Assembly (NCBI GenBank): GCA_002506365.1
Contig: DAXK01000024.1
Coordinates: 30,944 to 94,943, forward strand
Direction: 5' to 3'
DNA from: an archaeon UBA583
GTDB lineage: Archaea > Nanobdellota > Nanobdellia > Woesearchaeales > UBA583
Length of the DNA: 64,000 bases
Numbering within the stretch: the stretch's first letter is position 1; each line of letters begins with the position of its first letter. Both the position numbers and the translations under genes were made by a program. Of the stretch, positions 42,075 through 56,149 are shown in pieces. The notes beneath the pieces are model-generated. The model ran no database searches, was not told the origin of the DNA, and was given only the letters and a program-made list of their open reading frames with translations.

Positions 42075-43088
42075 ATGGGAAAAAAACAAAAACAACAAAG
42101 AAAAAATAACGATATGGGAATTCCATTAAAAGAACAAATTAAACCAATTTTCAAAGAAAGATTTCTACAAATGTTAGGAAGTGAACAAGAATATCAAAAA
42201 TTTGAAGATTGTATTTTAACACCACAAAGAAAATCATTTAGAATCAACTCATTAAGAGTTGAAGAACCAAAACAATTAGCGCAACAAATTAAAGATAAAG
42301 GAATTAAAATTAGTGAAGTTCCATGGTGTAAAAACGCTTACTTTACTGAATACGATAAAGAAGCAAGAAGTGACTTAGGAAATTTATACGAACACTTCAC
42401 AGGAAGAATTTATGTTCAAGAAGCAACATCCATGTCCCCACCAGAATTATTAGAAATCCCAGAATCAATTGACAATAATTTTAAAGTTTTAGATATGTGT
42501 TCAAGTCCAGGAAGTAAAACAACACAAATTGCTGACTTAATGAAAGGAGAAGGAATCTTAGTTGCTAACGAATTAGATTTTAAAAGATTAGGACCATTAA
42601 AAATCAACCTTGAGCGAGCAGGATATACAAATATTGTAATCACAAACCAAGATGCAAGTAGAATTCAAGGTGAAGAAATATTTGATAGAATTTGTTGTGA
42701 TGCACCATGTTCAGGAAGTGGAGTAATCAGAAAATCTCCTAAAACAATTAAAACATACAATCCTAAAAAATTACACCAAATTCAAAATTTACAAATCTCA
42801 ATTTTACAAAGAGGATTTGAATTATTAAAAAAAGGAGGAATTATTACATACTCAACTTGTTCAATTGACCCAGAAGAAAATGAATTATGTGTAAAAAGAT
42901 TTTTAGAAGAAAATCCAACAGCGATTTTAGAACAAGCAACATTACCAGGTTTAATTTTAAACAACAAATTAACTAAATTTTACAATACAGAAATTCCTAA
43001 AGAAATTACTGAAAAAACAATTAGAATTTGGCCACAAGATAATGATACAAATGGTTTCTATGTAGCTAAAATTCGAAAGTCTGAGTAA
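42075..43088 (+). CDS. NOL1/NOP2/Sun-family RNA (cytosine-C5)-methyltransferase
   Basis: VLDMCSSPGSKTTQIA, DRICCDAPCSGSGVIRKSP, GGIITYSTCSIDPEENE. Confidence 0.9.
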   Translation: MGKKQKQQRKNNDMGIPLKEQIKPIFKERFLQMLGSEQEYQKFEDCILTPQRKSFRINSLRVEEPKQLAQQIKDKGIKISEVPWCKNAYFTEYDKEARSDLGNLYEHFTGRIYVQEATSMSPPELLEIPESIDNNFKVLDMCSSPGSKTTQIADLMKGEGILVANELDFKRLGPLKINLERAGYTNIVITNQDASRIQGEEIFDRICCDAPCSGSGVIRKSPKTIKTYNPKKLHQIQNLQISILQRGFELLKKGGIITYSTCSIDPEENELCVKRFLEENPTAILEQATLPGLILNNKLTKFYNTEIPKEITEKTIRIWPQDNDTNGFYVAKIRKSE

Positions 43089-43162
43089 AATTACTCAGAC
43101 CTCCACGAACCATTGTGTTCGTGTGAGAGTCAATTTCTAAATCCATTGGATTTAAAATGATA
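43081..43162 (+). repeat. Structured intergenic element, copy 1 (three hairpins)
   Basis: H0 CTGAGTAA-aa-TTACTCAG overlaps the stop codon. ACCTCC follows. H1 is CACGAAC-cattgt-GTTCGTG (43104-43123), then TGAGAGTCAATTTC, then H2 TAAATCCA-t-TGGATTTA (43138-43154), then AAATGAT. Confidence 0.6.
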
Positions 43163-44434: not shown

Positions 44435-44498
44435 AAAATTGACACCATAAACCATTGGTTTATCTGTGTCTCAATTCGATTACACAGTAATTGAATTT
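44435..44498 (+). repeat. Structured intergenic element, copy 4 (core), flanked by 47-bp direct repeats
   Basis: H1 ATAAACC-att-GGTTTAT, then CTGTGTCTCAATTC, then GATTACACAGTAATTGAA. This aligns with copy 2 (AATACACTGTATTGAA). The flanks 44388-44434 and 44499-44544 are near-identical. Confidence 0.55.
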
Positions 44499-44854: not shown

Positions 44855-45454
44855 ATGACAACTTTAATTGCAACCGGAGCAGAATCAGAAATCCATAAAA
44901 TTAATGATACAACTCTAAAAAAAATCAGACTTGCAAAAACATACAGAATCCCAGAAATCGACTTAAAACTAAGAAAATTTCGTAATAGAAGAGAATTCAA
45001 AATATTACAAAAACTACACACCGAAAATATTTTAGTCCCAGAACCATACAAAATAATTGAAGATAAACGTATTGATGAAATAAGCTTTGAATTTGAATTT
45101 TTAACTGGACAAGTTTTAAAAAACTGTTTAACAAAAGAATTATTATTTAAAGCATTTAACCAAATAATTCAAATGCACAAATTTGAAGTTACACACTCAG
45201 ACCTTACAACATTAAATATGATTTGTCAAAATAATGAAATTTATTTAATTGATTTTGGACTTGGAGAATTTTCAGTAAAACCAGAAGATAGAGCAGTTGA
45301 CTTAAACCTATTTTTCAACTGTATCAAAAACGAGCACCCTGAATTTTATAAATATAAAGATGAATTAAAACAAATTTACTTTAAATTTAACCAAAGAGTA
45401 TTACACAATCTAGAAAAATTAGAACACAGAGGAAGAAATAAAAGTAAGAATTAA
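44855..45454 (+). CDS. bud32: Bud32/PRPK-type atypical kinase (KEOPS subunit)
   Basis: LIATGAESEIHK..., RNRREFKILQKL, HSDLTTLNMI..IYLIDFGLGE....EDRAVDL. Confidence 0.85.
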   Translation: MTTLIATGAESEIHKINDTTLKKIRLAKTYRIPEIDLKLRKFRNRREFKILQKLHTENILVPEPYKIIEDKRIDEISFEFEFLTGQVLKNCLTKELLFKAFNQIIQMHKFEVTHSDLTTLNMICQNNEIYLIDFGLGEFSVKPEDRAVDLNLFFNCIKNEHPEFYKYKDELKQIYFKFNQRVLHNLEKLEHRGRNKSKN

Positions 45455-45533
45455 TCTTTGATTAATTTTACCTCCACTAACCGTTGTGTTAGTGTGATAT
45501 TCAATTTATCAATACACTGTATTGAAAATGATA
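45449..45533 (+). repeat. Structured intergenic element, copy 2
   Basis: H0 AATTAATC-ttt-GATTAATT overlaps the stop codon. TTACCTCC follows. H1 is CACTAAC-cgttgt-GTTAGTG (45475-45494), then TGATATTCAATTTATC, then H2 TCAATAC-act-GTATTGA (45509-45525), then AAATGAT. Confidence 0.6.
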
Positions 45534-52129: not shown

Positions 52130-53446
52130 ATGACTCAAAACTTAGCAATTTTATTTTCCGGTGGAAAAGATTCAAATTATGTAACATATTTAGCAAAACA
52201 GACAAATAATAATGTATCTTGCTTAATTACACTAAGTTCTAAAAATCCAAATTCTTACATGTTCCAATCTGTTGGAAATGAAATAATTAAAGTTCAAGCA
52301 AAATCTATGAATATTCCTCTGCTTGAATATCAAACTGAAGGTGAAAAAGAAAAAGAATTAGAAGATTTAAAATCAGCTCTAAAACTTGCAAAAGAGAAAT
52401 ATAATATTGAAGGTGTATGTTCCGGAGCAATTAAATCCGCATACCAATCAAGTAGAATTCAAGACATATGTAAACAATTAGATTTATTTTGCTACAATCC
52501 AATTTGGCAAATAGATGAAGATGAATATATGGACAAATTATTAGAAAATAATTTTGAAATCTCAATATTTGGAATTTTTTCATACCCATTTGAAAAAACA
52601 TTACTTGGAAAAACAATTAATCAAAACCAACTAAACAAATTAAAACAACTTAGATCTGAATTTGAAATATCAATAGCTGGTGAAGGTGGAGAATATGAAA
52701 GTTTTATTTTAGATAGTCCACTATTTTCACAAAAAATCCAAATAAAACAATTCAACTCAAAAATGGATTCTGAAAATTCAGGAATAATCACAAATTGTAA
52801 AGTTGAATTAATTAAAAAAGAAAATCAAAATAAAATAAATAAAGTTTTAACAAATCAAAACAATAAAGATAAAATAAATAATGAAAAAAATGAAGAAATA
52901 TTAGTTATTAATTTAAACAAAAAAGAAAATAAATTATATGAACTTGAATATGTAAAACCAATAACACAAATTATTCAATCTCAAAATAAAACATTTAAAG
53001 TTTTAAATTATATAGATTTAAATGATAAAATAATTACCAAATATAATAAGATAATTTTATCAGGAACACCACTAAAAGAATTTGAATATTTAAAACACTT
53101 AGATAAATTTAACTGGATTAAACAAAAAGAAAATTCAAATAAACACATATTAGGAATTTGTGCAGGTTGTCAAATTATTCAAAAAATATTTGGAGCTAAC
53201 GAAATAAATTTTTCAGAAATTGGACTAAAAAATCCAGAAATATTAATTCAAGATAAAATATTAAATAGAGAATCTCTAAAAGAAATTTATACTCTTCATT
53301 CAAAAAGTTTTCAAATACCTAAAGAATTTGAAATAATTGCAAAAACCTCAATTCCACAAATAATTAAATATAATAATATCTATGGAACTTTATTTCATCC
53401 AGAAGTTAGAAACCACCAAATTATTACAAACTTTTTAAACTTTTAA
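52130..53446 (+). CDS. Fusion protein: MJ0570/Dph6-like PP-loop ATP pyrophosphatase (N-terminal) plus class I glutamine amidotransferase (C-terminal)
   Basis: N-terminal half: LAILFSGGKDSNYV, SYMFQSVG, GVCSGAIKSAYQSSRIQDICKQL, IAGEGGEYESFILDSPLF. C-terminal half: ILGICAGCQII (nucleophile Cys, about nt 53150-53175) and GTLFHPEV (His-Glu, about nt 53393-53407), ending ..ITNFLNF. An N/K-rich linker lies between them. Confidence 0.8.
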   Translation: MTQNLAILFSGGKDSNYVTYLAKQTNNNVSCLITLSSKNPNSYMFQSVGNEIIKVQAKSMNIPLLEYQTEGEKEKELEDLKSALKLAKEKYNIEGVCSGAIKSAYQSSRIQDICKQLDLFCYNPIWQIDEDEYMDKLLENNFEISIFGIFSYPFEKTLLGKTINQNQLNKLKQLRSEFEISIAGEGGEYESFILDSPLFSQKIQIKQFNSKMDSENSGIITNCKVELIKKENQNKINKVLTNQNNKDKINNEKNEEILVINLNKKENKLYELEYVKPITQIIQSQNKTFKVLNYIDLNDKIITKYNKIILSGTPLKEFEYLKHLDKFNWIKQKENSNKHILGICAGCQIIQKIFGANEINFSEIGLKNPEILIQDKILNRESLKEIYTLHSKSFQIPKEFEIIAKTSIPQIIKYNNIYGTLFHPEVRNHQIITNFLNF

Positions 53447-53506: not shown

Positions 53507-53824
53507 ATGGTAGATTTTTGTAAAAATTGTGGAGCCATCATTATGGGTTCCAAAGGAGATGAAGTAGATTGCCCAAGTTGTGGACAAGCTCAAAAAGCAA
53601 AAACAGAGATGAAATTTTCAGAAAAAGTTGCAAAAGTAGAAGAAAAAGAAATTGTTGACACTAACGAAGCTGCTGAAATTAACCCAATCACTGATGCTGA
53701 ATGCCCAGAATGTAAAAGCCCTAAAGCTTACTATTGGACAAAACAAACAAGAGCTGGTGACGAACCAGAAACACAATTTTTCAAATGTGTTGAATGTGCT
53801 CACCAATGGCGTGATTACAGATAA
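53507..53824 (+). CDS. tfs: Transcription factor S (TFIIS/RpoM-like cleavage factor)
   Basis: N-terminal Zn ribbon CKNCGA..CPSCG. C-terminal Zn ribbon CPECKS..TRAGDEPETQFFKCVECAHQW carries the acidic DE hairpin. Confidence 0.9.
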   Translation: MVDFCKNCGAIIMGSKGDEVDCPSCGQAQKAKTEMKFSEKVAKVEEKEIVDTNEAAEINPITDAECPECKSPKAYYWTKQTRAGDEPETQFFKCVECAHQWRDYR

Positions 53825-53907
53825 ATCTTTGATTTATATGTAATTAATTCGTGAAACATTGTTTCACGTGAATGTCAAATTTTCAAACCATTGATTTGAA
53901 AATGATT
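53821..53907 (+). repeat. Structured intergenic element, copy 3
   Basis: H0 ATAAATC-ttt-GATTTAT overlaps the stop codon. H1 is CGTGAAAC-att-GTTTCACG (53850-53868), then TGAATGTCAAATT, then H2 TTTTCAAA-ccattga-TTTGAAAA, then ATGAT. Confidence 0.6.
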
Positions 53908-54085: not shown

Positions 54086-55192
54086 TTACCAAAATTTCCA
54101 AAATGGTTTTTTCTTTTTAGACCTAAACCTTTCAAGTTGTTCGCGTGAAGTTGTAGAATTCACTCTAGGTTTAACTTGATTAAAATCAGGTTCATTAACA
54201 GGTTCAAGTTCTAATGCCATTGAACTTTTTCTAAGCTTTTTATAATCATCAGATTTAACTCCAAATTTATTCATCATAAAGATTTTTAATTCATCAGTAT
54301 CTTTATGCCCTGGACTTAATCTATTAACACTAAAACTATGAACTGGAAGTTTAAATGAACCAGATTTAATTCCATCAACTAAATTATCATAAAATACAAC
54401 TGGATGACCTAAACCAACCAAAGCAGAAATCCCTTTAAACAAAGATTGTTTTCTACCTGTCCTCTCCAAAGTTAAAGATTTCCACTCTCCCATAGGAGGT
54501 AAAATAAAAGTATTTGTAATATGAGGATCAAACCCTACAGCCAAACTAGGAGTTTTTTCATCTGAATTAAATTTTCTTAAAAAACTCATCTCCGACTCAT
54601 TTAAAATTTCATTAAATTTTGAATCATAATTTAAAGAATACAAATTATAATTACTACCTTCTTTTTTCATAACTAAAAAATTCTTAACTACATCAGTATA
54701 AAATTGTTCTTTAGAATAAACTGCTAATTTTTTTAATAAAATTTGTCTTAATTGTTTTAACTCTGTTGATAATCCAATATCAACTTTACACAATTTTAAA
54801 GGTAACTCTAAATTTCCAGACTTTAAAGCTGATTTAAAATCTGATAATTCAATAACTGGAATTTCAGTTTTAATTAAATCAGTTAAACCATAATTAATAG
54901 ACTCTAAACCTTTTGATGATTTTAAACTTAAAGAACTCCAAACTTCACTTGGAGGTAAAACTGAATATTCATCAATTTCTTTTAAATCCTCAATCACTGG
55001 ATGTTTTAAAGTATTAATTTTATCTAAAGCTAATTTCTCTGAAACATTTATATCTAATCCAAAACTATCATCCTTTAATTTTAAACTTAAAAGAGTATAT
55101 CCTGGATACCCTAATCCAGATTCATTACCCTCATTTTTTGAAACAAATAAAAAATGGTTCACAATATTCTCAAAAAATTCTCTCTTATCCAT
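54086..55192 (-). CDS. Hypothetical protein with an internal duplication
   Basis: 368 aa. The two halves share F(F/Y)..(I/V)V(N/K).FL...K.EG, (V/I)LPP..EW.SL(S/T)L and KSG..(E/K)LP. The C-terminus is basic. Confidence 0.55.
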   Translation of the reverse strand: MDKREFFENIVNHFLFVSKNEGNESGLGYPGYTLLSLKLKDDSFGLDINVSEKLALDKINTLKHPVIEDLKEIDEYSVLPPSEVWSSLSLKSSKGLESINYGLTDLIKTEIPVIELSDFKSALKSGNLELPLKLCKVDIGLSTELKQLRQILLKKLAVYSKEQFYTDVVKNFLVMKKEGSNYNLYSLNYDSKFNEILNESEMSFLRKFNSDEKTPSLAVGFDPHITNTFILPPMGEWKSLTLERTGRKQSLFKGISALVGLGHPVVFYDNLVDGIKSGSFKLPVHSFSVNRLSPGHKDTDELKIFMMNKFGVKSDDYKKLRKSSMALELEPVNEPDFNQVKPRVNSTTSREQLERFRSKKKKPFWKFW

Positions 55193-55243
55193 AAATACAT
55201 TTTAAATCCATAATATATAAAGATTATGTATCAATTAATAAAA

Positions 55244-55753
55244 TTACAAACCAATTTCTAATAATGTGTTATCTCCAACAAAAGTAGTTTTTTTAAAATT
55301 TAAACTAAATTTTTCTGAAAAATTTAAACACCCATTTAAACATATATCTAAATATTCTTTTTGAGATTTTAAATTAAAATCATAATCAACTGCATCAAAA
55401 TGTCTCATCCTAAAAAAATATCCTCTTGACTTTGAATTCTCATTATCAAAATCCTCAAACTCTGCACTAATTAATTCAAATTCAGTAAATATTTCAGATA
55501 ATTTATTTAAATCCCCAACACAAATCTTAACTAAAACACCGCAAACCATCTCATCAAGCTCCCCTTTATCAATATTTAAATAAGTGCAATCAAATCCAAA
55601 TTTAGAATTAAATAAATCACAATCTTTAAAATTAAAAACTCTAACAAAACCATGTAATCTTGCTAATTTTTCAAATTCAAAATCTATTTTAAACTTAGAA
55701 AAATATTCTAAATTCATTAAAAAATCATACAAAAATAAATTTACTTTTTTCAT
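55244..55753 (-). CDS. Hypothetical protein (weak resemblance to the AIG2/GGCT-like fold)
   Basis: 169 aa. LFLYDFLM...ARLHGFVRVFN...MVCGVLVKICVGDLNKL loosely fits the GGCT-like pattern. The fit is not secure. Confidence 0.45.
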   Translation of the reverse strand: MKKVNLFLYDFLMNLEYFSKFKIDFEFEKLARLHGFVRVFNFKDCDLFNSKFGFDCTYLNIDKGELDEMVCGVLVKICVGDLNKLSEIFTEFELISAEFEDFDNENSKSRGYFFRMRHFDAVDYDFNLKSQKEYLDICLNGCLNFSEKFSLNFKKTTFVGDNTLLEIGL

Positions 55754-55759
55754 GTAACT

Positions 55760-56149
55760 CTAAATTCTCCGTCCAATAAAATTATTTAACTTTTCAATCA
55801 CATCATCAATATTAGTTCCAACATAATCATCAATTAAATCATCACATAAAATAACAAAAAATGATTCATCATCATTTAAAGCAGACAAATTTAATTCATC
55901 ATCCAAACAATCAGATTTATTGTTATAAAAATCAACAAAAAAAGCTTCACAACTCCCAGTTTTTTTATTATCGAAAGTTATTTGCCAATGAAAATGTTTA
56001 TTTTTTTCCAACGCTTCAAACCCAGTTTTAAATAAATTTTGCACTCCACCGTTTTTTAAACTAGAATTATTTGCCCTTCCAATAATATCATCGATATTAA
56101 TTCTTAATGCTGTAACTTTATCAATTAAACTCTCTTTTCTCCCAAACAT
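55760..56149 (-). CDS. Hypothetical acidic protein
   Basis: 129-aa ORF, first gene of a three-gene co-oriented set with 6-51-nt gaps. Confidence 0.45.
   Translation of the reverse strand: MFGRKESLIDKVTALRINIDDIIGRANNSSLKNGGVQNLFKTGFEALEKNKHFHWQITFDNKKTGSCEAFFVDFYNNKSDCLDDELNLSALNDDESFFVILCDDLIDDYVGTNIDDVIEKLNNFIGRRI

What the first reader, a model, noticed from the sequence alone, without database searches (positions are those of the whole stretch)
52130..53446. Fusion of a Dph6/MJ0570-type PP-loop ATPase with a class-I glutamine amidotransferase; possible glutamine-dependent diphthamide synthetase
Seen in sequence: one 438-aa ORF. The first roughly 215 aa match the MJ0570/Dph6 family (SGGKDS PP-loop, SGAI.S.YQ..R, GEGGEYE). 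The last roughly 185 aa carry the GATase-1 triad context (GICAGCQ, FHPEV, NFL). An N/K-rich linker joins them.

Established knowledge: diphthine-ammonia ligase amidates diphthine using ATP and ammonia. Archaeal homologs are stand-alone proteins, and eukaryotic Dph6 is fused to different (YjgF-like) domains.

Inference: the fused GATase could supply ammonia by channelling. This would resemble GMP synthase but with the reverse domain order. I am not aware of this architecture being described.
Basis: partly seen in the sequence, partly recalled or inferred. Interest (0 to 1): 0.6.

Follow-up and report, generated by a model that had tools for sequence, protein, structure and literature searches.

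The report
Dph6 fused to its glutaminase partner
This archaeal gene joins the enzyme that finishes the diphthamide modification of translation factor EF-2 to a small glutamine-splitting enzyme, and the same two parts sit side by side as overlapping genes in about a fifth of species in at least two archaeal phyla, so these archaea probably take the last nitrogen from glutamine, not free ammonia.

Summary
Window 52130-53446(+) is one uninterrupted 438-aa ORF with three parts:
- An N-terminal Dph6 domain. It scores 243 bits on TIGR03679 against a cutoff of 197.
- A disordered N/K-rich linker of 26 residues.
- A C-terminal class-I glutamine amidotransferase with Cys344/His423/Glu425.

It is not an assembly artefact. 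Four independent assemblies hold 63-85% identical fused relatives.

It is also not unique. The usual form is a dph6 gene overlapping by 4 nt a dedicated ~180-aa GATase gene. This pair occurs in Methanomicrobiales, Methanotrichaceae, Bathyarchaeia, Thermoplasmatota and Nanoarchaeota/Woesearchaeota. About 18-21% of sampled species in two phyla carry the GATase family, and roughly one carrier in ten has it fused. A genome of the window's own genus still has the split pair.

The GATase is a distinct paralogue, not GMP synthase subunit A. No NCBIfam model claims it, and the triad is kept in 149 of 150 family representatives.

The best reading is a glutamine-hydrolysing diphthamide synthetase. One caveat: some methanogens keep the partner with a degraded triad. 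The searchable literature describes only the AsnB-type fusion (2012), not this one.

The parts
52130..53446 (+). Whole 438-aa ORF (stop codon included): Dph6-linker-GATase fusion
   Evidence: The AF2 model has pLDDT 88.3 and pTM 0.88.
52130..52819 (+). Dph6 (diphthine-ammonia ligase) PP-loop domain, residues 1-230
   Evidence: PF01902 E 1.6e-52. TIGR03679 is above its cutoff. Foldseek matches PF0828 (3rk1) with target TM-score 0.95 and 38% identity. The stand-alone Dph6 of same-genus genome G196 ends exactly at residue 230.
52157..52174 (+). PP-loop SGGKDS (residues 10-15), ATP pyrophosphatase motif
   Evidence: Invariant in 31 fused proteins. Aligned to the PP-loop of PF0828 and PH1257.
52679..52699 (+). 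GEGGEYE (residues 184-190), carrying E185/E188/E190, which correspond to PF0828 E183/E186/E188, the Dph6-subfamily signature
   Evidence: Alignment to 3rjz. The signature residues are listed in PMC3541065. Invariant in A1.
52820..52897 (+). N/K-rich linker, residues 231-256, created by the fusion of two formerly overlapping genes
   Evidence: pLDDT is below 50 for residues 234-253. The region has no counterpart in the split pair of G196. Length and sequence vary among fused relatives.
52898..53443 (+). Class-I glutamine amidotransferase domain, residues 257-438, a member of a Dph6-linked GATase family
   Evidence: PF00117 is above its gathering score. It scores 209 bits on the family profile A2. 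Fold matches to archaeal GuaAA subunits have target TM-scores of 0.71-0.74.
53159..53161 (+). Codon of the nucleophile Cys344 (TGT) in the GICAGCQ elbow
   Evidence: sequence. Cys is invariant in 31 fused proteins and present in 149 of 150 family representatives.
53396..53404 (+). His423-Pro424-Glu425 (CAT CCA GAA), the rest of the catalytic triad
   Evidence: sequence. His and Glu are each present in 150 of 150 family representatives.

Best explanation
The gene encodes a glutamine-hydrolysing diphthamide synthetase, which carries out the last step of diphthamide formation on EF-2.

Proposed mechanism:
1. The N-terminal PP-loop domain (Dph6) uses ATP to adenylate the carboxylate of diphthine on EF-2.
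2. The C-terminal class-I GATase hydrolyses glutamine on Cys344, assisted by His423 and Glu425.
3. The nascent ammonia passes to the adenylated intermediate and gives diphthamide, AMP, PPi and glutamate.

The logic is that of the two-subunit archaeal GMP synthetase, with a GATase subunit and a PP-loop ATP pyrophosphatase, applied to a protein-bound substrate.

The fusion is a recent derivative of a translationally coupled dph6-GATase gene pair, made by loss of the dph6 stop codon and insertion of a low-complexity linker.

Shown here: domain identities, intact catalytic motifs in both halves, strong and widespread genetic linkage, and distinctness from GuaAA. Inferred: glutaminase activity, ammonia transfer and the identity of the acceptor.
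For: 1. Both halves pass curated thresholds and keep their catalytic residues. Eight of the nine Dph6-subfamily signature residues from PMC3541065 are conserved, and A149 is replaced by Ser.

2. This is the only PF01902 gene above threshold in the genome, and Dph2 and Dph5 are present, so it must be the organism's Dph6.

3. Rosetta-stone evidence. The same two modules occur as separate genes with a 4-nt ATGA overlap in about 38 of the 80 best loci. These come from Methanospirillum, Methanomicrobiaceae, Methanotrichaceae, Bathyarchaeia, Thermoplasmatota and Nanoarchaeota. They occur as single ORFs in Methanothrix, Methanomicrobium mobile and two DPANN clades.

4. Linkage in an unbiased sample of census hits. 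dph6 lies directly upstream on the same strand in 20 of 20 Halobacteriota and in 29 of 34 genomes of the window's phylum.

5. The triad is under selection. Among 150 representatives at 50% identity, Cys is present in 149, His in 150 and Glu in 150. All 33 complete sequences sampled from the window's phylum are canonical.

6. It is not GuaAA. M. lacunae and M. mobile each have a true GuaAA (254 and 236 bits) in addition to this paralogue (72 and 40 bits). The window's genome has no GMP_synt_C domain.

7. Two independent AF2 models of fused proteins from different lineages both give pTM 0.88 with only the linker disordered. This points to a defined packing of the two domains.

8. The GATase tree broadly follows taxonomy, with fused forms nested among split ones in several clades. 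A same-genus genome still has the split pair.
Against: There are no biochemical data for any member.

Some methanogens keep the partner with a damaged triad:
- Methanoculleus has Cys replaced by Ser.
- The fused M. mobile protein and a Hadarchaeota MAG have Cys replaced by Gly.
- Two Halobacteriota genomes have His replaced by Tyr, and one has Ser-Ser-Glu.

That is 6 of 19 complete sequences sampled in Halobacteriota. The partner therefore has, at least there, a role that does not need glutamine hydrolysis.

Five high-scoring family members in the window's phylum are not next to dph6.

I could not read model coordinates, so no ammonia tunnel or distance between active sites was examined.

No glutamine synthetase was found in the window's genome, which is 74% complete, so glutamine would have to be imported.
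Confidence: 0.7

Rival explanations
1. The GATase-like domain is mainly a structural or allosteric partner of Dph6, for example in folding, oligomerisation or docking of EF-2. On this reading the amidation still uses free ammonia, and glutamine hydrolysis is dispensable or vestigial.
For: The partner is retained next to or fused to dph6 even where the nucleophile or the His is lost. Examples are Methanoculleus with Ser, fused M. mobile with Gly, a Hadarchaeota MAG with Gly, and two Halobacteriota genomes with Cys-Tyr-Glu. About 80% of species in both phyla manage without the family.
Against: In the window protein and all 31 fused relatives the full triad is invariant. Among the 150 representatives Cys is present in 149, and His and Glu in all 150. 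All 33 complete sequences sampled in the window's phylum are canonical. Conservation of this kind is not expected for a pure scaffold.
Confidence: 0.15
2. The PP-loop half is not, or not only, a diphthine-ammonia ligase. On this reading the pair amidates another carboxylate, either a different protein or a metabolite, as was proposed for the non-Dph6 DUF71 subfamily.
For: DUF71 is not monofunctional (PMC3541065). No activity has been measured for any GATase-linked member.
Against: TIGR03679, an equivalog model, is passed. Eight of nine Dph6 signature residues are kept. This is the only PF01902 gene above threshold in a genome that has Dph2 and Dph5. Linked and unlinked Dph6 domains are interleaved on the Dph6 tree, with 13 label changes on the tree, at least 4 of them forced by well-supported branches. 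The linked ones are therefore not a separate subfamily.
Confidence: 0.07
3. The C-terminal domain is GMP synthase subunit A, or a general-purpose glutaminase, that became attached to Dph6 and actually serves another synthetase.
For: The best profile and fold matches of the C half are to GuaAA. JGI labels many stand-alone members 'GMP synthase (glutamine-hydrolysing)'. In M. lacunae the true guaAA lies only about 3.2 kb from the pair.
Against: Scores are 44-73 bits against cutoffs of 172-198. True GuaAA coexists with this paralogue in M. lacunae and M. mobile. No GMP_synt_C domain was found in the window's genome. In a 0.7-Mb Woesearchaeote it is the only GuaA-like GATase. The linkage is specifically to dph6.
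Confidence: 0.05
4. Assembly or sequencing artefact: a frameshift in the A-rich junction has hidden a stop codon and merged two genes.
For: The junction at 52820-52897 is A-rich and low in complexity. The split form with overlapping genes is the common state, and a same-genus genome has it.
Against: Four relatives from other assemblies (63-85% identity) have the same continuous frame with linkers of different sequence. Fusions recur in Methanothrix and other lineages.
Confidence: 0.01

Closest known systems
Two-subunit archaeal GMP synthetase (GuaAA class-I GATase plus GuaAB PP-loop ATP pyrophosphatase, e.g. Methanocaldococcus jannaschii, Pyrococcus horikoshii)
   Same: It pairs a small class-I GATase of about 185 aa with a PP-loop adenylating enzyme. 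The C half's nearest folds are GuaAA subunits (2a9v, 2d7j, 7d97; target TM-score 0.70-0.74). The expected chemistry is the same: adenylate a carboxyl or oxo group, then attack it with glutamine-derived ammonia.
   Different: The PP-loop partner is Dph6 and the acceptor would be a protein-bound residue on EF-2, not XMP. The GATase is a separate paralogue far below the GuaAA cutoffs, and it coexists with true GuaAA. The domain order in the fusion is PP-loop then GATase, the reverse of one-chain GMP synthetase.
Stand-alone archaeal Dph6 (PF0828 / PH1257 / MJ0570; EC 6.3.1.14, diphthine-ammonia ligase)
   Same: The N half has the same fold (target TM-score 0.95, 35-38% identity), the same PP-loop and the same signature residues. 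It passes the TIGR03679 equivalog model.
   Different: It carries a C-terminal glutaminase domain. The predicted nitrogen donor is glutamine, which would make it an EC 6.3.5-type reaction.
AsnB-DUF71 fusion proteins (Methanohalophilus mahii, Methanosalsum zhilinae, 'Ca. Nanosalinarum'; de Crecy-Lagard et al. 2012, PMC3541065)
   Same: This is also an archaeal Dph6 fused to a glutamine amidotransferase, and the same idea was put forward: that glutamine supplies the ammonia. The architecture is also frequent among this protein's homologues (L059 and L070).
   Different: There the extra part is N-terminal and has two domains, a class-II Ntn GATase and a second AsnB-like PP-loop domain. Here it is a single C-terminal class-I triad GATase with no second PP-loop, so there is no ambiguity about which synthetase it serves.
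Eukaryotic Dph6 (yeast YLR143W) with C-terminal RidA/YjgF domains
   Same: A Dph6 core with C-terminal extra domains that have been suggested to relate to ammonia supply.
   Different: The appended domains are unrelated (RidA fold, no glutaminase triad).
MurT/GatD lipid II amidotransferase
   Same: A small dedicated class-I GATase is encoded in an operon with an ATP-dependent amidoligase that modifies a macromolecule-linked carboxylate. The paper turned up. The comparison itself comes from general knowledge.
   Different: The ligase partner there is Mur-ligase-like, not a PP-loop enzyme, and the system is bacterial. There is no homology beyond the GATase fold.

Membership tests
Dph6 / diphthine-ammonia ligase (TIGR03679, PF01902) | Score above the curated equivalog cutoff | tested here: met
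   TIGR03679 scores 243.4 bits against 197.3. PF01902 scores 178.6 bits against 23.2.
Dph6 / diphthine-ammonia ligase (TIGR03679, PF01902) | PP-loop SGGKDS and the Dph6-subfamily signature residues (PF0828 S44, Y45, E78, Y103, Q104, A149, E183, E186, E188) | tested here: met
   SGGKDS lies at residues 10-15. S42, Y43, E76, Y105, Q106, E185, E188 and E190 are conserved, and A149 corresponds to S151.
Dph6 / diphthine-ammonia ligase (TIGR03679, PF01902) | Fold of PF0828/PH1257 | tested here: met
   Foldseek against 3rk1_B gives E 8e-23, target TM-score 0.95 and rmsd 1.3.
Dph6 / diphthine-ammonia ligase (TIGR03679, PF01902) | Pathway context: Dph2 and Dph5 present, and this is the organism's only Dph6 | tested here: met
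   Dph5 scores 212.8 bits against 114.3. There is a single PF01902 match above the cutoff. The genome is 74% complete.
Dph6 / diphthine-ammonia ligase (TIGR03679, PF01902) | ATP-dependent amidation of diphthine on EF-2 | not testable with these tools
   This needs an enzyme assay.
Class-I (triad) glutamine amidotransferase (PF00117) | Pfam gathering score | tested here: met
   47.2 bits for the whole protein and 50.3 bits for the C half alone, against 22.8.
Class-I (triad) glutamine amidotransferase (PF00117) | Cys-His-Glu triad in the nucleophile elbow G-x-C-x-G and the H-P-E motif | tested here: met
   C344, H423 and E425 are invariant in A1. Among the 150 family representatives Cys is present in 149, His in 150 and Glu in 150.
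Class-I (triad) glutamine amidotransferase (PF00117) | GATase alpha/beta fold | tested here: met
   Target TM-scores of 0.70-0.78 to GuaAA, TrpG and PabA subunits.
Class-I (triad) glutamine amidotransferase (PF00117) | Glutaminase activity coupled to an acceptor domain | not testable with these tools
   This needs an assay.
GMP synthase subunit A (GuaAA; NF001975, TIGR00888) | Score above the curated cutoff | tested here: not met
   44-50 bits against 172-198 for the window's domain. Stand-alone members score 50-73 bits.
GMP synthase subunit A (GuaAA; NF001975, TIGR00888) | A GuaAB / GMP_synt_C partner in the genome, and this being the genome's GuaAA | tested here: not met
   No PF00958 match in the window's genome. 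M. lacunae and M. mobile have a separate true GuaAA.
AsnB-DUF71 fusion (PMC3541065) | N-terminal class-II GATase plus an Asn_synthase PP-loop domain | tested here: not met
   The window protein has no PF13522, PF13537 or PF00733 match. Dph6 starts at residue 1.

The most novel reading that the evidence does not exclude
Archaea possess a widespread, unnamed two-component enzyme: a glutamine-hydrolysing diphthamide synthetase. This would be a new EC 6.3.5-type activity acting on a protein substrate. It consists of Dph6 plus a dedicated class-I glutaminase subunit, which databases currently label 'GMP synthase', 'gamma-glutamyl-GABA hydrolase family' or 'hypothetical'. The pair has fused repeatedly, in Methanothrix, M. 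mobile and at least two DPANN clades including this one. In some Methanomicrobiales the glutaminase has decayed into a pseudoenzyme that is still kept as a Dph6 partner, which implies a second, structural function.
Probability: 0.6. Interest if true: 0.65.

Novelty: new variant of a known kind. Interest (0 to 1): 0.52.

Why it matters
**Open question addressed.** Diphthamide is a conserved modification of EF-2 and the target of diphtheria toxin. Its last step is known only as an ammonia-dependent reaction, and where the ammonia comes from has been an open side question since Dph6 was identified in 2012.

**What would be new.** A dedicated glutaminase partner would define a second, glutamine-dependent form of the enzyme. 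Such a partner is genetically locked to dph6 in about a fifth of species in two large archaeal phyla, and it is present in several others. As far as I know, it would be the first class-I amidotransferase complex whose acceptor is a residue on a folded protein.

**Practical consequences.**
- It corrects a systematic mis-annotation of several hundred protein clusters.
- It offers natural single-chain versions, such as this one, that should be convenient for biochemistry and structure work.
- The lineages with a degraded triad offer a natural experiment on how amidotransferase subunits become pseudoenzymes.

Tried and rejected
1. **Read support.** I relied instead on independent assemblies of relatives.

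2. **Ammonia tunnel and distance between active sites.** Structure prediction returns only summary values, and no coordinates appear in the Python box. Only pLDDT and pTM could be used.

3. **A wrong first reading, corrected.** I first took the full-length matches (query residues 1-438) to be fusions. Translating the loci showed that most are two overlapping genes.

4. **A mapping error, corrected.** A first mapping of triad columns was wrong by a few residues because hmmalign trimmed the sequence ends. I redid it by anchoring on the motifs.

5. **Counting independent fusions.** Parsimony on the GATase tree needs 8 changes between fused and split. Well-supported branches force only one, so multiple origins are likely from taxonomy but not proven statistically.

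6. **GuaAA moonlighting.** Considered and rejected.

7. **Literature.** Searches with several term sets found no paper on a class-I GATase linked to Dph6. They returned only the 2012 AsnB fusion paper. Subscription journals are not covered, so a prior description cannot be excluded.

Full report
**The observation.** The window holds one uninterrupted ORF at 52130..53446(+), 438 aa. Residues 5-216 match PF01902 (Diphthami_syn_2) at E 1.6e-52. Residues 274-429 match PF00117 (class-I GATase) at E 2.7e-12, above the gathering score. The N half passes NCBI's equivalog model for archaeal Dph6, TIGR03679, with 243 bits against a cutoff of 197. The C half resembles GMP synthase subunit A most closely, but at 44-50 bits against cutoffs of 172-198. 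The codons of Cys344, His423 and Glu425 can be read directly in the DNA.

**Not an artefact.** Four proteins from other assemblies are 63-85% identical over the full length and have the same architecture. Their linkers differ in sequence while the frame stays open.

**How common the fusion is.** A search of the 5.8-billion-protein collection gave about 50 clusters of 410-480 aa with PF01902 + PF00117. Some are NCBI records named only 'diphthine--ammonia ligase', from Methanothrix, Woesearchaeota and Nanobdellota. A scan of named species genomes at first seemed to show the fusion everywhere. Translating the loci corrected this:
- Only five of the 80 best loci are single ORFs: three from Methanothrix/Methanotrichaceae, Methanomicrobium mobile, and one Woesearchaeote.
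- About 38 have a dph6 gene of about 226 aa followed by a separate GATase gene of about 180 aa, nearly always overlapping by 4 nt (ATGA). This is the signature of translational coupling.
- These pairs come from Methanospirillum (including the complete genome of M. lacunae), Methanomicrobiaceae, Methanotrichaceae, many Bathyarchaeia, Thermoplasmatota, a Thermococci MAG and Nanoarchaeota/Woesearchaeota.
- The remaining loci carry stand-alone Dph6 or the AsnB-type fusion.

**Census.** I built a profile of 40 Dph6-linked GATases (A2).
- It hits 62 of 301 species genomes in the window's own phylum (41 of 224 genera), and five of these are fused.
- It hits 55 of 301 in the phylum of Methanospirillum, again with five fused.
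- Against 1.84 billion representatives at 50% identity there are 288 clusters at E <= 1e-30. Seven of the best 150 are fused.
- I fetched the upstream DNA of 60 census hits across the whole score range. dph6 lies directly upstream on the same strand in 20 of 20 Halobacteriota and in 29 of 34 assessable true members in the window's phylum. Five are free-standing.

A genome of the window's own genus has the split pair. Its Dph6 (47% identical) ends exactly at window residue 230, and its GATase (46% identical) aligns from about residue 257. Residues 231-256 are therefore the linker made by a recent fusion.

**A distinct GATase family.** No NCBIfam model reaches its cutoff on stand-alone members. 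The best is GuaAA at 50-73 bits against 198. Public names for these members are inconsistent: 'GMP synthase', 'GMP synthase-like glutamine amidotransferase', 'gamma-glutamyl-gamma-aminobutyrate hydrolase family' and 'hypothetical'. M. lacunae and M. mobile each carry a true GuaAA (254 and 236 bits) as well as the Dph6-linked paralogue (72 and 40 bits). A 0.7-Mb Woesearchaeote has only the linked one. The window's genome has no GMP_synt_C domain. That rules out the reading that this is GMP synthase subunit A.

**Conservation.** Cys344, His423 and Glu425 are invariant in 31 fused proteins that are only 31-85% identical. Among 150 family representatives Cys is present in 149, His in 150 and Glu in 150. 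Family-specific positions are also nearly invariant: E273, P277, G312, Y387 and H390.

On the Dph6 side, eight of the nine subfamily signature residues listed in the 2012 paper are kept, and A149 is replaced by Ser. The genome has Dph2 and Dph5 and no second Dph6.

**Structure.** The AF2 model has pLDDT 88.3 and pTM 0.88, with only residues 234-253 disordered. An independent model of a Methanothrix-type fusion also gives pTM 0.88. Values that high for two domains joined by a floppy linker point to a defined packing. I could not inspect coordinates, so nothing can be said about a tunnel. In the PDB, the N half matches PF0828/PH1257 (target TM-score 0.95) and the C half matches GuaAA subunits (about 0.72). 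No solved chain covers both halves.

**A complication.** Some methanogens keep the partner with a damaged triad:
- Methanoculleus has Ser for Cys.
- The fused M. mobile protein and a Hadarchaeota MAG have Gly.
- Two Halobacteriota genomes have Tyr for His, and one has Ser-Ser-Glu.

These make up six of 19 complete sequences sampled in Halobacteriota and none of 33 in the window's phylum. Glutamine hydrolysis is therefore the best reading for this protein. The partner must also contribute something else, because it is retained without the chemistry.

**Mechanism.** The most likely function is a glutamine-hydrolysing diphthamide synthetase. Dph6 adenylates diphthine on EF-2, the GATase releases ammonia from glutamine, and the ammonia attacks the adenylate. 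This follows the logic of two-subunit archaeal GMP synthetase. The domain identities, motifs and genetic linkage are shown here. The activity and the ammonia transfer are inferred. I put this at about 0.7.

**Comparison with what is known.** The 2012 DUF71 paper proposed glutamine as a nitrogen source for Dph6 on the basis of an N-terminal AsnB (class-II GATase plus second PP-loop) fusion. It also discussed RidA fusions in eukaryotes. It does not mention a class-I GATase, and it says physical clustering was generally not seen among dph2, dph5 and DUF71. Further searches found nothing on this pairing.

**Verdict.** The finding is real and its functional reading is reasonable. It is one fused member of a widespread, unrecognised Dph6-glutaminase pairing and not a unique architecture. 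I class it as a new variant of a known kind and of moderate interest.

Noticed in passing
L012, L015, L033 (Methanoculleus nereidis), L057, L047, L007, L006 (Methanomicrobium mobile); census loci L145, L147, L149, L157, L158, L162: Dph6-linked GATase homologues with a degraded triad. The variants are Cys to Ser, Cys to Gly (including the fused M. mobile protein, GIGTGF), His to Tyr, and Ser-Ser-Glu. All are still adjacent to or fused with dph6. They look like pseudo-glutaminases kept as Dph6 partners.
   Followed up: partly
Homologue list (e.g. P0059, P0062, P0094); L059 4531-6681, L070 3026-5158: A second Dph6 architecture of about 500-730 aa has an N-terminal class-II GATase and an Asn_synthase domain. 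This is the AsnB-DUF71 fusion described in 2012. Neither locus has the class-I GATase downstream.
   Followed up: partly
G001 (Methanospirillum lacunae) C1:3666373-3666918 and C1:3670115-3670690: The true guaAA gene lies only about 3.2 kb upstream of the dph6-GATase pair in M. lacunae. This may be coincidence or a trace of the duplication that gave rise to the paralogue.
   Followed up: no
L105, L106, L109, L122, L136: Five high-scoring members of the GATase family (178-228 bits) in the window's phylum are free-standing, with unrelated genes upstream. I did not determine where dph6 lies in those genomes.
   Followed up: partly
L018 4536-5306, L068 6669-7195: In two Woesearchaeota MAGs, about 0.5-0.8 kb of other sequence separates dph6 from its GATase gene instead of the usual 4-nt overlap.
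   Followed up: no
Own genome G000: C41:28211-28582 (L084 1312-2004): A 230-aa GuaA-like class-I GATase (96 bits to GuaAA, below the cutoff) in a genome where no GMP_synt_C domain was found. Its partner is unknown.
   Followed up: no
Own genome G000 (whole): No glutamine synthetase catalytic domain (PF00120) and no GMP synthase C-terminal domain were found. The genome is only 74% complete. If these are truly absent, glutamine must be acquired from outside.
   Followed up: partly
Own genome G000 C1:8087-8991: The Dph2 match comes in two pieces in different frames with stops between them. This fits the two-gene Dph1/2 reported for DPANN archaea (bioRxiv 10.1101/262600).
   Followed up: no
window 1-64000: GC skew is strongly negative over nearly the whole window (about -0.2 to -0.48) at 20-32% G+C, with positive AT skew.
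   Followed up: no
window 53821-53907 (also 43081-43162, 44435-44498, 45449-45533): Another first-stage note (e1-2886485) reports a four-copy family of intergenic hairpin elements. One copy lies just downstream of the TFS-like gene next to this ORF. I did not examine it.
   Followed up: no
window 54086-56149 (-): Three consecutive ORFs of 368, 169 and 129 aa have no Pfam match at E <= 0.001.
   Followed up: no
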